From a virus (Duplodnaviria; Heunggongvirae; Uroviricota; Caudoviricetes), in the IMG/VR virus record IMGVR_UViG_3300011531_000036, positions 1 through 3,170 of that record: a DNA stretch of 3,170 nucleotides. One strand, written 5' to 3'. The notes below the pieces were generated by a model, which saw only the letters and a program-made list of their open reading frames with translations, did not search any database and was not told the origin of the DNA. Numbering within the stretch: the first letter of the stretch is position 1; each line of letters begins with the position of its first letter. Below are positions 594-3,170 of the stretch, in pieces. Made by a program: the position numbers and the translations under genes.

Positions 594-789
594 GCTTCAC
601 CTCGATAGGCTTGATGGTGTCTAACAGCAGTCGGCGGCGCGTATTTTCTGCAAAGTGGCGGCGTCCAGTTTCTTTGTGGTAAAACTCGTTTTTGCCGACG
701 ACCCACATCCGTTCTGTTTGGTGCAATTTTTTTACCTGCGGTCCATCTTTGGTGATCACGGTACCGGTATGGGTTTTTACGATTGTCAT
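586..789 (-). CDS. Hypothetical small phage protein (67 aa)
   Basis: ATG at 789-787 with GAGG about 7 nt upstream. The ATG overlaps the TGA of the upstream PAPS-reductase-like ORF as ATGA (786-789). No family recognised. Confidence 0.55.
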   Translation of the reverse strand: MTIVKTHTGTVITKDGPQVKKLHQTERMWVVGKNEFYHKETGRRHFAENTRRRLLLDTIKPIEVKHV

Positions 790-1664
790 GCCACTACCTC
801 TTCGAATTTCAACTCCAATTGGTCACCCCAGATTTCACATGATTCGGAACACGAACCAGTATCAAACCGCTTGGCCAGCACCATCGCCTGATACAAACTT
901 CTGTAGTCGCTGTCGGCATACATTCTGGCAATCCTGTCAAGCGTCAGGTGACCACGGTACATAACGTCTTTACCTGTTCTGCGATGACCATCCCGGACGT
1001 GTTTGCCTGTAACCAGTTCATTAAAAACCCGCATCAGACCAGGTTCGTCTTTACATGCGATCCCCAGCTTTTGCGTTGACTTTTTGATGCAGAAAACACA
1101 GTTCCCGAGGTGCTCCGGGATTTGCAAATCAAAAGGTTGTTTACGCCACCACCGGATAACATCCGACTTATCAAAATCTGACAGCTCGGCAAGATACCGG
1201 ACGCCCGGTTTCGGTTTCAGCCTACGGTGTTCGTCCGCACGAATACCCAGCCATGTGATGTAATTCCCTCGCCCAAAATGGTCATCGCAATATTTCGTGA
1301 AAGGGGTGAGTTTTAGCCTGTCAGTACAGAATGCGCCGCCGATGTATGGCGTACCGTACTTTTTAACCATGTCCATAAACGGTTTAAGCACCGGCATTCG
1401 CGTCTGAATATCCTTTGGTTCCCATTCCGTATAACCATTTGGCTGCCCAAGCTCTGGATTTATATCGACCTGCAACACAGTTAGCGGTATGCCCCAGAAC
1501 TTCACAACCTCCCGAATAAAGCGGTATGTCAGCGGATGTTCGCAACCGGTATCCATAAAGATGTAGCAGACGTTATTGCCAGCCTTTCTTTGTTCTTCCA
1601 TCAGGTGAACAAGATATGCAGATGTTCTCCCGCCAGAAAAACTAACTACATGAGTTATGCACAT
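786..1664 (-). CDS. Phosphoadenosine-phosphosulfate (PAPS) reductase family / PP-loop ATP-pyrophosphatase-fold protein, phage-associated (292 aa)
   Basis: ORF of 292 aa. N-terminal VVSFSGGRTSAY resembles the PP-loop SGGxDS motif. The segment FMDTGCEHPLTYRFIREV aligns by eye with the conserved CysH block ILTDTGYLFPETYRFIDEL. There is a CxxC (NCVFCIKK) and a C-terminal Cys cluster (GSCSESCEIW). The ATG at 1664-1662 lies 4 nt upstream of the upstream gene's stop codon (TAA 1657-1655; ORFs share nt 1655-1664), so the weak SD is compensated by coupling. Confidence 0.85.
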   Translation of the reverse strand: MCITHVVSFSGGRTSAYLVHLMEEQRKAGNNVCYIFMDTGCEHPLTYRFIREVVKFWGIPLTVLQVDINPELGQPNGYTEWEPKDIQTRMPVLKPFMDMVKKYGTPYIGGAFCTDRLKLTPFTKYCDDHFGRGNYITWLGIRADEHRRLKPKPGVRYLAELSDFDKSDVIRWWRKQPFDLQIPEHLGNCVFCIKKSTQKLGIACKDEPGLMRVFNELVTGKHVRDGHRRTGKDVMYRGHLTLDRIARMYADSDYRSLYQAMVLAKRFDTGSCSESCEIWGDQLELKFEEVVA

Positions 1665-2191
1665 TTGCGTAATTCCGATAACTCGTTGAAGCGTTCCATA
1701 AACATCCCGTAGGCATGGCCCGGTGCCAGTGGAATCACTTTGAACATCTCTGTTGCCGGGATACCTTCCAATACAGGCCAGAAAGAGCCATCATCAAGTC
1801 CGAGATCGCGGCGTTCGGTTGCCAGCATGATGAGATCGGCATATTTCACTGGCGTGCTCATAACAGGAGGTAACCCGTATTTCTCACGGATTACGGCGTC
1901 TATTTTTTCTTCCATCCGTTTATAGTCAGGAAGAAGTCGTTTCAGTGGTGCGGGGATGTCATGGCAATACGCTTCTGTTGCATCATGCATTAACGCTTCA
2001 AAAGCAAATTCCTGCGGCACCAGCTGGCTGCAAAGCACCGCATGCTGGGCGACACTGTAGAAGTGTGAAAGATGTCCTGCAAAGCGACAGATATTTGAAA
2101 GGGAAACCGCGATATCGTTAATAACGATGTCGTCTTTATTTATCTTGTCATAATAAAAATGCTTCCCGGAAAAAGTTTTAATAAATGACAT
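1655..2191 (-). CDS. yfdR: HD-domain phosphohydrolase, YfbR/YfdR-family 5'-deoxynucleotidase (178 aa from the ATG at 2191)
   Basis: HD motifs are visible: RFAGH, then ALMHDATEAYCHDIPAPLK, matching the YfbR-type block ALxHDAxEAxxGDxPxPxK. The preferred start is the ATG at 2191-2189 with GGAG 6 nt upstream; the ORF track's 187-aa version starts at an in-frame GTG at 2218 with no obvious SD. The 178-aa length and prophage context match my recollection of E. coli CPS-53 YfdR; the symbol is assigned from memory, not a search. Confidence 0.85.
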   Translation of the reverse strand: MSFIKTFSGKHFYYDKINKDDIVINDIAVSLSNICRFAGHLSHFYSVAQHAVLCSQLVPQEFAFEALMHDATEAYCHDIPAPLKRLLPDYKRMEEKIDAVIREKYGLPPVMSTPVKYADLIMLATERRDLGLDDGSFWPVLEGIPATEMFKVIPLAPGHAYGMFMERFNELSELRKCA

Positions 2192-2315
2192 TTTGTTCTC
2201 CACGTATATGCGCTGCACCGCGCTGAATTCGGGTAAAAGGAAGCCCTCACCGTCCGGCGATTATTGAGTCAATTACATTTCCATAAATGCCCCCGTAGGG
2301 GCGGTTAGTTTCTCC

Positions 2316-2404
2316 ACAAAACAGAGAAGAACACCTGCGGTGGCAGCCGCCCGGATGGATTGGGTTATGAGCCCGTCGTCCGGTGATGCTCTTCTCTGTT
2401 TTGT
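2316..2404. repeat. Perfect 15-bp inverted repeat (acaaaacagagaaga at 2316-2330, tcttctctgttttgt at 2390-2404) enclosing a 59-nt GC-rich insert that can form two further hairpins
   Basis: Verified base by base. Inner helices: gcgg/ccgc at 2337-2340/2347-2350, and ccggatg/cgtccgg at 2351-2357/2377-2383 with a nested ggg/ccc at 2362-2364/2372-2374. Overall a three-way-junction-like fold of 89 nt. Lies in a region without credible coding potential. Confidence 0.8.
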
Positions 2405-2449
2405 AAAAAGGACGGTACCAGCCGGAAGCAAGGGTACAAGCTGGTACCG
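2403..2449 (-). terminator. Candidate rho-independent terminator on the minus strand (10-bp GC-rich stem plus U-tract)
   Basis: Perfect inverted repeat cggtaccagc (2413-2422) and gctggtaccg (2440-2449) with a 17-nt loop. On the minus-strand RNA the stem is followed after 3 nt by UUUUU (complement of 2409-2405). The loop is larger than typical, so it may instead be a structured RNA element or protein-binding palindrome. Confidence 0.4.
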
Positions 2450-2480
2450 CCAAGACTACACACAGCATAAAGTTGTGGTG

Positions 2481-2500
2481 CCGGGTGCCTCCCGGTGCCT
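2481..2500. repeat. Tandem decamer ccgggtgcct / cccggtgcct
   Basis: Two adjacent 10-nt units differing at one position. The second unit overlaps a 6-bp stem, gcctgg (2497-2502) pairing with ccaggc (2516-2521). Confidence 0.7.
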
Positions 2501-2590
2501 GGCGAAGGTTGCACACCAGGCGGGTGGGTATCCACAGAAGGTCGACTGTCAGCCTCAACCTTAACCCGCGTGCGCTGAGCCGCATTCACC

Positions 2591-2720
2591 ACAACGCTAA
2601 GGATTCTCTCTGGTTGAAAATACTTAGCTGTTATGTGCCTGCTTTTAGCCACATCAGGCGAGGTGGACCTAGTTATTCCCCAACAACAAGGATTCGGTTA
2701 ATCTGGTTATCCCCAACAAC
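2591..2720. promoter_or_regulatory. Degenerate direct repeats upstream of the 144-aa ORF (candidate operator/iteron-like sites)
   Basis: gttattccccaacaac (2672-2687) and gttatccccaacaac (2706-2720) are near-identical, 34 bp apart; the second ends 15 bp before the ATG at 2736. A looser module, acaac..aaggattc..ctgg, recurs at 2591-2613 and 2682-2705. No convincing sigma-70 -35/-10 pair could be placed by eye. Confidence 0.45.
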
Positions 2721-2735
2721 GTAAAAGGAAAAGAA

Positions 2736-3170
2736 ATGTCCGGTAATATCTATACGCTGTACAAATCCCACTGTGAAAATGTTGGAAAGTATCGGGGCAT
2801 TGAAATCAGTGGGGTAGTGTCATCAGTCGAAATAAGCAAAGTTGAATCAAGGGCAACATTACTTACTCTTTTGGACCTTGTTTTACATGAGCACCGGAAG
2901 AAATTCGGCACTCCCTATAATCAGTTGAATGGGAAAAAGGCTCTGGTTCACCTTATTCTGATGAAGCATCACTGGATGCCAAAACAGATTAATGAGATGA
3001 AATTTGATGAACTTCTTCTTTCAATTCAGGATGAACTCACACTTGATAAAATAAGCGTAACCGCCCAGAAATTTTTAGATTATCGAGACTGGAGATCACA
3101 AATTCATCACTTTGATGATTTTGACGAAAATGAATGGGATCCTAATTTGTCTGCACAATATCTAAAGTAA
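2736..3170 (+). CDS. Hypothetical orphan protein (144 aa), AT-rich moron-like gene with an acidic C-terminus
   Basis: Complete ORF: ATG 2736 to TAA 3168-3170, with AGGA 6 nt upstream (2726-2729). No competing ORF on either strand. About 38% GC by hand count (2741-3170), against about 58% in the adjacent non-coding region. C-terminal third is rich in D/E (HHFDDFDENEWDPNLS). No family recognised. Confidence 0.75.
   Translation: MSGNIYTLYKSHCENVGKYRGIEISGVVSSVEISKVESRATLLTLLDLVLHEHRKKFGTPYNQLNGKKALVHLILMKHHWMPKQINEMKFDELLLSIQDELTLDKISVTAQKFLDYRDWRSQIHHFDDFDENEWDPNLSAQYLK

What the first reader, a model, noticed from the sequence alone, without database searches (positions are those of the whole stretch)
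2736..3170. AT-rich, divergently transcribed orphan gene (144 aa) with acidic tail: candidate moron (defence, anti-defence or regulatory)
The gene is oriented against the surrounding leftward operon, has about 20 percentage points lower GC than its neighbours, and has its own strong SD. These are hallmarks of a horizontally acquired moron. I recognise no family. The protein has a basic/hydrophobic N-terminal half and a strongly acidic C-terminal third. Prophage morons at this position often encode superinfection-exclusion, abortive-infection or anti-restriction functions. With the structured RNA region upstream it could form a two-part RNA-protein system, but that is speculative.
Basis: partly seen in the sequence, partly recalled or inferred. 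Interest (0 to 1): 0.6.

Follow-up and report, generated by a model that had tools for sequence, protein, structure and literature searches.

The report
Prophage accessory gene paired with YdfC-like gene
The 144-aa ORF is a real prophage accessory gene of a catalogued family with unknown function (ECs1072 family), always embedded antisense in a phage lytic operon and nearly always tail-to-tail with a small YdfC-like early gene, so it is an interesting but fairly ordinary "moron" and not an orphan.

Summary
The ORF (2736-3170, +, 144 aa) is real. It is under purifying selection (dN/dS 0.23) and folds confidently (pLDDT 93). It is AT-rich, but 10-15 GC points below its neighbours, not 20.

Context supports the moron reading:
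- 411 of 5426 complete E. coli genomes carry most of the queried stretch with the gene. The flanking backbone is in about 2900, with other cargo in the same slot.
- In all 22 loci examined the gene lies antisense to a lytic operon (pL, pR, Q-holin, P2-like early, phage-plasmid).
- It has its own terminator.

New here: in 13 of 15 locus types a small YdfC-like gene on the lytic strand converges on it and overlaps its 3' end. That family also occurs alone.

The upstream structured RNA is real but lies on the opposite strand. It is an STnc100/DicF-like backbone sRNA, not a dedicated partner.

Best guess (about 0.35): a lysogen-expressed exclusion-type effector that is neutralised or silenced when the lytic promoter fires.

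The parts
2736..3170 (+). CDS of the ECs1072-family protein (144 aa), soluble and all-alpha
   Evidence: The ORF is listed. It scores 157.8 bits on NF033230 and E 1.5e-90 on phrog_5286. dN/dS is 0.23. The AF2 model has pLDDT 93.2 and pTM 0.87.
2725..2729 (+). Shine-Dalgarno AAGGA, 6 nt before the ATG
   Evidence: Read directly from the sequence. It lies inside the second copy of the leader repeat (D4/D6).
2637..2720 (+). Conserved leader / expression platform. It holds the inverted repeat GCCTG(2637-2641)/CAGGC(2655-2659), the direct repeats TCCCCAACAAC at 2677-2687 and 2710-2720, and ACAAGGA at 2686-2692.
   Evidence: It aligns across loci whose proteins are only 25-35% identical. The same leader precedes a different 173-aa cargo in E. 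coli S43. No consensus sigma-70 promoter was found. The + strand is not unusually structured.
3142..3170 (-). Last 29 nt (including the stop codon) of the convergent YdfC-like partner gene. The rest lies beyond the window end (68 aa; L001 15943-16149).
   Evidence: The coordinate offset comes from L001 and the translation. The motif EPKIVAPGYTDEEIYEWM recurs in 13 of 15 locus types. The protein is 40% identical to annotated ydfC genes.
3052..3067 (-). Terminator-like hairpin on the lytic-operon strand, inside the ORF and about 80 nt downstream of the partner's stop
   Evidence: Pattern scans only. This is consensus-level evidence.
2402..2625 (-). Context, not part of the module: an STnc100/PasD-like sRNA with a DicF-like terminator, belonging to the phage backbone
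   Evidence: Rfam RF02076 gives 43.4 bits (GA 47), E 2e-7, and a weak DicF hit at 2410-2464. The minus-strand fold has z -6.8. The same DNA is present without the ORF in thousands of E. coli genomes and is 'ymfH' in e14.

Best explanation
The ORF is an autonomous accessory ('moron') transcription unit of the ECs1072 family. It is inserted antisense into the repressor-controlled early-left operon of an SfIV/e14/CPS-53-type lambdoid prophage, between a YdfC-like first gene and a DicF/STnc100-like sRNA.

Shown:
- It encodes a conserved, soluble, all-alpha protein with no known fold relative.
- Its transcript would run antisense through the whole YdfC-like gene to an intrinsic terminator just past that gene's start.
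- The YdfC-like gene lies directly downstream of a candidate pL that carries CI-operator-like repeats.

Inferred:
- In the lysogen, pL is repressed and the ECs1072 protein is made.
- It acts as a non-enzymatic binder that interferes with superinfecting or developing phage (an exclusion or abortive-infection-type effector).
- When the lytic promoter fires, convergent transcription silences the gene. The early YdfC-like protein neutralises the effector, giving the phage self-immunity.
- The direction of the pairing (effector = ECs1072, neutraliser = YdfC-like) is inferred only from the one-way co-occurrence. ECs1072 genes almost never occur without a YdfC-like gene, whereas YdfC-like genes often occur alone, as orphan immunity genes do.
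For: - Family membership. The family holds 74 clusters, nearly all 143-157 aa.
- Coding and fold.
- Presence/absence and slot variability: 411 of 5426 genomes carry at least 80% of the 2200-3170 query, which includes the gene, whereas the backbone is in about 2900. The alternative cargos are ymfI/ymfJ, a 173-aa protein, or nothing on the + strand.
- The gene is always antisense, in these contexts:
  - pL side.
  - pR side.
  - Q-holin.
  - P2-like early operon.
  - Phage-plasmid.
- The convergent, overlapping YdfC-like partner is present in 13 of 15 locus types. In a six-frame scan of 534,000 residues the motif hit essentially only those ORFs.
- The partner family occurs alone. Phage 118970_sal3 keeps a 95-nt remnant of the ECs1072-like 3' end next to its partner gene, which indicates loss of the effector.
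- Own terminator at L001 16208-16227; candidate pL at 16343-16315; CTTAGTT operator-like repeats flank the cI gene. There are + strand terminators in 9 of 14 loci.
- SieB sits in tandem on the same strand in Yersinia.
- In e14, the gene at the partner position (ymfJ) is strongly induced late in the SOS response, while the + strand gene (ymfI) is much less so (PMC11002266).
- ECs1072 transcript changes were detected in an uninduced Sakai culture (PMC2241611).
Against: - No consensus sigma-70 promoter was found upstream, so expression in the lysogen is not shown.
- Two locus types (L015, L025) lack a recognisable partner.
- YdfC-family genes are widespread early genes with an unknown role of their own. 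The pairing could therefore reflect an insertion hot spot.
- The physical interaction between the two proteins was not tested.
Confidence: 0.35

Rival explanations
1. Lysogen safeguard with the opposite polarity. The YdfC-like early protein is a host-takeover or toxic factor, like its operon neighbours DicB and DicF in Qin. The ECs1072 protein, together with its antisense 3' UTR, is the antidote that protects the lysogen from leaky pL, pR or pR' expression.
For: - The convergent overlap puts the ECs1072 mRNA antisense to the whole partner CDS and its SD.
- The partner is the first or an early gene after lytic promoters in all contexts.
- The ydfABC-dicF-dicB operon encodes toxic products (PMC5069750).
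Against: - Many phages carry YdfC-like genes without any ECs1072 gene.
- One phage lost the ECs1072 gene but kept the partner. That is the decay pattern expected for an orphan immunity gene, not for an unprotected toxin.
- Nothing known shows that YdfC is toxic.
Confidence: 0.2
2. A stand-alone exclusion, abortive-infection or anti-restriction moron. The neighbouring YdfC-like gene would be only a preferred insertion point or the carrier of its terminator.
For: - Moron hallmarks.
- The same slot and strand as SieB.
- The slot holds unrelated cargo in sister prophages.
Against: - The pair recurs in at least five unrelated operon contexts, including a P2-like phage and a phage-plasmid. That is hard to explain by a single hot spot.
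- There is no match to any known defence family.
Confidence: 0.2
3. Mainly a cis- or antisense-regulatory unit. Transcription from the ORF's promoter collides with pL transcription and dampens it, stabilising lysogeny. The protein itself would be secondary or a lysis-lysogeny regulator.
For: - The gene always sits face to face with a lytic promoter, within about 0.3-1 kb.
- A conserved leader with an inverted repeat, GCCTG-N13-CAGGC, could be an operator.
Against: - Strong purifying selection and a conserved, confident fold across 74 clusters show that the protein matters.
- No helix-turn-helix or other DNA-binding fold was detected.
Confidence: 0.12
4. A two-part RNA-protein system formed with the upstream structured RNA.
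For: A divergent STnc100-type RNA lies about 100 nt upstream in the window, in SfIV and in Klebsiella phage KPP5665-2.
Against: - The RNA DNA occurs without the gene in about 2500 more E. coli genomes, and in e14 as 'ymfH'.
- No STnc100 hit was found in ST64B or in six loci from four other genera (Yersinia, Pectobacterium, Proteus, Pantoea).
- The RNA is on the lytic-operon strand, like dicF after ydfC.
Confidence: 0.04

Closest known systems
NCBIfam NF033230 'ECs1072 family phage-associated protein' / PHROG 5286
   Same: It is a full-length member: 157.8 bits against a cut-off of 70, and E 1.5e-90. It has the same size, and the namesake also has a prophage location antisense to an early operon.
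   Different: Nothing differs. The family simply has no assigned function. The current Sakai annotation replaces ECs1072 with ECs_5703.
P22/lambda/Rac SieB (with Esc) superinfection exclusion
   Same: It sits in the same slot and on the same strand between the early-left operon and the repressor, and lies in tandem with SieB in a Yersinia prophage. The proposed logic of a lysogen-expressed effector plus an early-expressed self-antidote is the same. The SieB/Esc part of this comparison comes from my own knowledge, not from a tool.
   Different: There is no sequence match to PF14163 and no membrane segments. The candidate antidote is a separate convergent gene, not an internal in-frame product.
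Prophage defence systems with cognate self-immunity (for example BstA/aba of Salmonella BTP1; from my own knowledge)
   Same: A defence gene next to the immunity region, with a built-in way to spare the phage's own lytic growth.
   Different: There is no homology (PADLOC negative). The protein is much smaller. The proposed self-immunity would work through a protein plus convergent transcription, not a DNA element. None of this is tested.
Qin dicBF operon (ydfA-ydfB-ydfC-dicF-dicB)
   Same: The backbone layout matches: a YdfC-like gene followed by a long untranslated stretch holding an sRNA with a DicF-like terminator.
   Different: Here the 'untranslated' stretch carries the ECs1072 gene on the other strand. 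The sRNA body is STnc100/PasD-like rather than DicF.
e14 ymfI/ymfJ pair of E. coli K-12
   Same: It occupies the same slot in a homologous backbone, with the same convergent, overlapping two-gene geometry.
   Different: Neither protein is homologous to its counterpart here.

Membership tests
NCBIfam NF033230 (ECs1072 family phage-associated protein) | Whole-protein HMM score at or above the curated cut-off (70 bits), with full-length coverage | tested here: met
   157.8 bits, E 1.7e-46; residues 4-144 match profile positions 2-142 of 142.
PHROG 5286 | Significant full-length HMM match | tested here: met
   E 1.5e-90, residues 1-144 of 144. The PHROG category is 'unknown function'.
Moron (extra gene in a temperate phage genome) | Present in some genomes and absent from close relatives, between the same conserved neighbours | tested here: met
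   411 genomes carry at least 80% of the 2200-3170 query, which includes the gene, whereas about 2900 genomes have the flanking backbone. Alternative or no cargo is found in L020-L023.
Moron (extra gene in a temperate phage genome) | Base composition distinct from the surrounding phage DNA | tested here: met
   GC is 37.7% for the ORF, against 47.7% (operon) and 52.6% (spacer). GC3 is 37%, against 48-52% in the neighbouring genes.
Moron (extra gene in a temperate phage genome) | Own terminator | tested here: met
   AAGCGTCCTGTAGGGCGCTTTTTT lies 237 nt after the stop codon in L001, outside the window. There are + strand terminators in 9 of 14 loci.
Moron (extra gene in a temperate phage genome) | Own promoter | tested here: inconclusive
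   No consensus sigma-70 site was found on the + strand upstream. A conserved leader exists.
Moron (extra gene in a temperate phage genome) | Expressed from the repressed prophage | not testable with these tools
   The only hint is that ECs1072 appears in a microarray list from uninduced Sakai cultures (PMC2241611).
SieB superinfection exclusion (PF14163) | Pfam HMM match and a membrane-protein architecture | tested here: not met
   No Pfam hit for the protein or for 47 relatives. The maximum 19-residue hydropathy is 0.84, so there is no TM segment.
Known anti-phage defence proteins (PADLOC-DB 2.0) | HMM match to any defence-system component | tested here: not met
   0 families at E <= 1.
Type II toxin-antitoxin pair | Two small co-directional, co-transcribed genes whose products bind each other, one of them toxic | tested here: not met
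   The gene order is convergent with 3' overlap, not an operon. Toxicity and binding cannot be tested here.
Rfam RF02076 STnc100 (the upstream RNA) | Covariance-model score at or above the gathering threshold (47 bits) | tested here: inconclusive
   43.4 bits, E 2e-7, full model length, on the minus strand. Klebsiella phage KPP5665-2 scores 108 bits.
YdfC family (the convergent partner) | Sequence similarity over the full length to annotated ydfC genes, including the N-terminal motif | tested here: met
   tblastn gives 39-41% identity over 97% of the query, E 2e-9, to ydfC of Qin-like and PPompW phages. The motif DPVIIAPDYTDDELYEWM matches EPKIVAPGYTDEEIYEWM. No curated HMM exists.

The most novel reading that the evidence does not exclude
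ECs1072-like and YdfC-like proteins form a previously undescribed two-gene prophage module. The two genes converge and overlap at their 3' ends. One is a lysogen-expressed effector with a new all-alpha fold. The other is an early lytic-operon protein that neutralises it, and convergent transcription acts as the on/off switch. If so, the many stand-alone YdfC-like early genes of lambdoid phages, including ydfC of Qin, would be counter-exclusion genes.
Probability: 0.2. Interest if true: 0.65.

Novelty: new member of a known kind. Interest (0 to 1): 0.42.

Why it matters
About 8% of complete E. coli genomes carry this gene, as do prophages of Shigella, Salmonella, Klebsiella, Yersinia, Pectobacterium, Proteus, Pantoea and Arsenophonus, and nobody knows what it does.

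The conserved tail-to-tail pairing with a YdfC-like early gene gives a concrete, cheap experiment: express one gene, the other, or both, then plate phages. The outcome could assign functions to two 'y-ome'/PHROG-unknown families at once. It could also explain why ydfC-type genes sit at the head of so many lytic operons.

The analysis also shows that several reference phage genomes (ST64B, KPP5665-2, Sakai Sp4) miss one of the two genes. It further shows that the 'ymfH' / frameshifted pseudo-CDS annotation covers an sRNA.

Tried and rejected
- Pfam on the protein and on 47 relatives found nothing consistent.
- PADLOC found nothing.
- PDB sequence search with two profiles gave 0 hits at E <= 10.
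- Foldseek against BFVD gave a best E of 1.4.
- The afdb50 library was unavailable.
- The search for related loci with the family alignment failed because no stretch was conserved enough. Contexts were gathered by exact-protein look-ups instead.
- The RNA-protein system was rejected.
- A structured + strand leader was rejected for the window (z +1.5).
- An upstream leader peptide was considered and dropped because there is no ATG, GTG or TTG start.
- Homology of e14 YmfI/YmfJ to the pair was rejected by inspecting the translations.
- Literature searches for ECs1072, ydfC, ymfI/ymfJ and the SfIV orfs found no functional study.

Full report
**1. What is in the window**

The window is a piece of an E. 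coli/Shigella lambdoid prophage of the SfIV/e14/CPS-53 type. On the minus strand it carries these genes:
- an AlpA/Xis-like gene (1-192);
- two small PHROG-unknown genes (354-593 and 586-789);
- a PAPS-reductase-like gene (786-1664);
- a YfdR-like HD 5'-deoxynucleotidase (1655-2218).

A 517-nt non-coding stretch follows (2219-2735). After it comes the only sizeable + strand gene, 2736-3170, encoding 144 aa.

The right half of the window (about 1655-3170) is 97% identical to phages SfIV, Kati and vB_EcoS-569R4 in two aligned pieces, because those phages carry yfdP/yfdQ between yfdR and the sRNA region. The left part is mosaic.

In a complete genome (E. coli LR-06, locus L001) the ORF is followed by:
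- a convergent 68-aa gene that overlaps its last 29 nt;
- then the LexA-like CI repressor (-);
- then Cro (+).

**2. Checking the observation**

The following points hold:
- The ORF, its strand and its length are as stated.
- The SD is AAGGA at 2725-2729, 6 nt before the ATG.
- Net charge by thirds is 0 / +4 / -6, the pI is 6.4, and there is no membrane segment.

The GC claim is overstated. The ORF is 37.7% GC. The leftward genes are 47.7% and the spacer is 52.6%, so the deficit is 10-15 points rather than about 20.

The ORF is a real gene:
- Against the E. albertii orthologue (72% aa identity), dN/dS is 0.23 in frame, against 0.58 and 2.7 in the other frames.
- A profile search of 1.84 billion cluster representatives finds 74 clusters at E <= 0.001, nearly all 143-157 aa.
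- AlphaFold2 with a 53-sequence alignment gives pLDDT 93.2 and pTM 0.87 for an all-helical protein.

**3. Not an orphan, but of unknown function**

The protein is a full-length member of NCBIfam NF033230 'ECs1072 family phage-associated protein' (157.8 bits, cut-off 70). It also belongs to phrog_5286, category 'unknown function'.

Members come from Escherichia, Shigella, Salmonella, Klebsiella, Yersinia, Pectobacterium, Proteus, Morganella, Pantoea, Arsenophonus and metagenomes.

The nearly invariant residues are L50, R54, L64, G66, A69, H72 and W134, the last in an EW(D/N)P motif.

Every homology route to a function failed:
- Pfam on the protein and on 47 relatives.
- PADLOC.
- PDB sequence profiles.
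- BFVD.

The fold therefore has no recognisable relative among solved structures. The only literature mention of ECs1072 is a line in a microarray table from uninduced O157 Sakai cultures (PMC2241611).

**4. Evidence that it is a moron-type accessory gene**

(a) Presence/absence.
- 411 of 5426 complete E. coli genomes carry at least 80% of the stretch 2200-3170. About 2900 carry the adjacent backbone, window about 2299-2666.
- In sister prophages the slot between that backbone and the CI gene holds other cargo. K-12 e14 has the non-homologous convergent pair ymfI/ymfJ. E. coli S43 has a 173-aa + strand protein behind the same leader. Other strains have only a 91-aa minus-strand gene.

(b) Composition: see section 2.

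(c) Own terminator.
- On the + strand of L001, AAGCGTCCTGTAGGGCGCTTTTTT lies at 16208-16227, which is 237 nt past the stop codon.
- A simple scan finds + strand terminators 20-275 nt after the stop in 9 of 14 loci.

(d) Orientation. In all 22 loci examined (15 distinct types) the gene is antisense to the surrounding lytic operon. The contexts are:
- between the early-left operon and CI in E. coli, E. albertii, Yersinia, Pectobacterium, Proteus and metagenomic phages;
- inside the early-right operon between cro/cII and the replication genes, in Sakai Sp4 (the family namesake), metagenomic phages and a Klebsiella plasmid-borne prophage remnant;
- between antiterminator Q and holin, in ST64B and Klebsiella phage KPP5665-2, where the ORF is unannotated;
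- inside the early operon of a P2-like Pantoea prophage;
- in an Arsenophonus phage-plasmid.

(e) In one Yersinia prophage it sits in tandem with a SieB-family gene on the same strand.

The missing hallmark is a promoter. No consensus sigma-70 site lies upstream.

**5. The recurrent partner**

In 13 of 15 locus types, a small ORF on the lytic-operon strand converges on the ECs1072-like gene and overlaps its 3' end by 29 to more than 300 nt.

These ORFs range from 68 to 190 aa. They share an N-terminal motif, [EQK]P-x-[ILFV]-[YFV]-x-x-G-x(4-6)-L-x-x-W-[LM], followed by a predicted coiled coil.

A six-frame scan of all loci (534,000 residues) found the motif essentially only in those ORFs; the few other matches contain stop codons or are unrelated. 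Several of these ORFs are unannotated: Sakai Sp4 L024 19117-19677, Pectobacterium L008 5266-5628, and Arsenophonus L030.

The E. coli partner is phrog_1744. It is 39-41% identical over 97% of its length to genes annotated ydfC in Qin-like and PPompW phages, and those genes carry the same motif.

The association runs one way:
- YdfC-like genes occur without an ECs1072 gene, as in PPompW, SKA5 and 118970_sal3.
- In 118970_sal3, a 95-nt remnant of the ECs1072-like 3' end persists next to the partner. The gene was therefore lost and the partner kept.
- Two locus types (L015, L025) have the ECs1072 gene without a recognisable partner.

**6. Transcriptional geometry (from L001)**

- A candidate pL (TTGCCA-17-TAGATT) lies at 16343-16315 on the minus strand.
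- Five of the six CTTAGTT copies in the 31-kb locus cluster on either side of the CI gene, at 16327-16382 and 17055-17110. These look like oL and oR.
- The YdfC-like gene (16149 down to 15943) would therefore be the first gene of the repressor-controlled leftward operon.
- That transcript then reads antisense through the ECs1072 gene and into the sRNA region.
- Conversely, the ECs1072 transcript reads antisense through the whole partner CDS and its SD before terminating.
- In e14, which shares this backbone, the gene at the partner position (ymfJ) rises about 4.8 log2 late in the SOS response. The + strand gene ymfI changes much less (PMC11002266).

The geometry is read from the sequence. That it works as a mutual off-switch is my inference.

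**7. The upstream RNA**

The spacer is strongly structured on the minus strand (-162.5 kcal/mol, z -6.8). Its elements are:
- an STnc100-like body at 2625-2470 (Rfam 43.4 bits against GA 47, E 2e-7);
- a DicF-like terminator hairpin (2449-2413) followed by a U run;
- a second hairpin with 25-nt arms (2404-2316);
- a small hairpin (2306-2289).

RefSeq annotates this stretch as a frameshifted pseudo-CDS, and in K-12 e14 it is 'ymfH'. A recent preprint links STnc100 with the PasD sRNAs and notes that it marks phage DNA (10.64898/2026.05.13.724894).

The layout of a YdfC-like gene followed by a long untranslated stretch with an sRNA mirrors ydfABC-dicF-dicB of Qin (PMC5069750).

This RNA is backbone, not a partner of the ORF:
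- Its DNA occurs in about 2500 more genomes than the gene does.
- Rfam finds no STnc100 in ST64B.
- Rfam also finds none in six loci from Yersinia, Pectobacterium, Proteus and Pantoea.
- Only Klebsiella phage KPP5665-2 repeats the divergent arrangement (108 bits).

**8. The leader**

A leader of about 85 nt (2637-2720) is conserved across loci whose proteins share only 25-35% identity. It contains:
- the inverted repeat GCCTG-N13-CAGGC;
- the direct repeats TCCCCAACAAC at 2677-2687 and 2710-2720;
- two A(C/A)AAGGA motifs, one of which is the SD.

The same leader precedes a different cargo in strain S43. It is about 97% identical between E. coli and E. albertii, whereas the coding region is only 78% identical. 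It therefore looks like a fixed expression platform with exchangeable cargo.

The + strand of the leader is not unusually structured (z +1.5). The GGA motifs resemble CsrA sites; that is my own reading and is untested.

**9. Mechanism**

Shown:
- It is a conserved soluble protein gene of a catalogued family.
- It behaves as a moron.
- It is embedded antisense in lytic operons.
- It has its own terminator.
- It overlaps convergently with a YdfC-like early gene.

Inferred, as my best model at about 0.35:
- The protein is made in the lysogen and acts as a binder-type exclusion or abortive-infection effector.
- When the lytic promoter fires, convergent transcription silences it and the YdfC-like protein neutralises it.
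- The one-way co-occurrence and the sal3 remnant fit the toxin/immunity rule that effectors do not occur without their antidote, whereas orphan antidotes are common.

Rivals:
- The opposite polarity, in which ECs1072 protects the lysogen from a leaky, harmful YdfC-like protein (0.2).
- A stand-alone exclusion moron, with the pairing due to an insertion hot spot (0.2).
- A mainly transcriptional-interference or regulatory role (0.12).
- The RNA-protein system (0.04).

**10. Novelty and score**

The gene family is already catalogued, and prophage morons are a well-known kind, so this is a new member of a known kind.

I could not find the following in the literature searched:
- the conserved convergent pairing with YdfC-like genes;
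- the consistent antisense embedding across five operon contexts;
- the absence of any known fold relative.

These features make a cheap functional test possible, but nothing here would greatly surprise a phage biologist. Interest is 0.42.

Noticed in passing
window 2289-2625 (- strand): This is a highly structured minus-strand RNA region (z -6.8). It comprises an STnc100/PasD-like body, a DicF-like terminator hairpin (2449-2413), a second hairpin with 25-nt arms (2404-2316) and a small hairpin (2306-2289). RefSeq calls it a frameshifted hypothetical CDS, and in K-12 e14 the same DNA is annotated as the protein gene ymfH. It is probably the dicF-equivalent sRNA of SfIV/e14-type phages.
   Followed up: partly
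L003 3281-3715 (ST64B); L004 4208-4681 (KPP5665-2); L031 about 2989-3430; L024 19117-19677 (Sakai Sp4); L008 5266-5628; L030 about 3230-3460: Reference phage and prophage annotations miss one member of the pair. The ECs1072-like ORFs are unannotated in ST64B, KPP5665-2 and a K. variicola plasmid. The YdfC-like partner ORFs are unannotated in Sakai Sp4, a Pectobacterium prophage and an Arsenophonus phage-plasmid.
   Followed up: yes
window 2637-2720; L021 2501-2940: The leader upstream of the ORF is conserved across genera. It contains the inverted repeat GCCTG-N13-CAGGC, the direct repeats TCCCCAACAAC x2, and two ACAAGGA-type GGA motifs resembling CsrA sites. It also precedes an unrelated 173-aa cargo gene in E. 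coli S43. It is about 97% identical between E. coli and E. albertii, whereas the ORF is only 78% identical. This suggests a fixed expression platform with swappable cargo.
   Followed up: partly
L020 5498-6085 (E. coli K-12 e14, ymfI/ymfJ): The same slot in e14 holds a non-homologous pair with the same convergent, overlapping geometry. Published SOS data show that ymfJ is strongly induced and ymfI much less so (PMC11002266).
   Followed up: partly
L001 16315-16382 and 17055-17110: Five of the six CTTAGTT copies in a 31-kb locus flank the CI gene. They are likely oL and oR operators, and the left-hand set overlaps a candidate pL (TTGCCA-17-TAGATT).
   Followed up: partly
window 786-1664 (- strand): The PAPS-reductase-like gene in the early-left operon (phrog_424) also hits the PADLOC SspD model at E 1.8e-15 and DndC more weakly. 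It sits next to a YfdR-like HD 5'-deoxynucleotidase.
   Followed up: no
L028 2758-2853 (Salmonella phage 118970_sal3): A 95-nt remnant of the 3' end of an ECs1072-like gene persists downstream of the YdfC-like (sb50-like) gene. The accessory gene was therefore deleted while its partner was kept.
   Followed up: yes
window 2233-2242 and 2721-2730: There is an exact 10-nt direct repeat, GTAAAAGGAA. One copy lies just past the 5' end (start codon) of yfdR (1655-2218, - strand), at the left edge of the spacer. The other is the SD region of the ORF, so the pair brackets the whole 517-nt spacer. Its significance is unknown and it may be chance.
   Followed up: no
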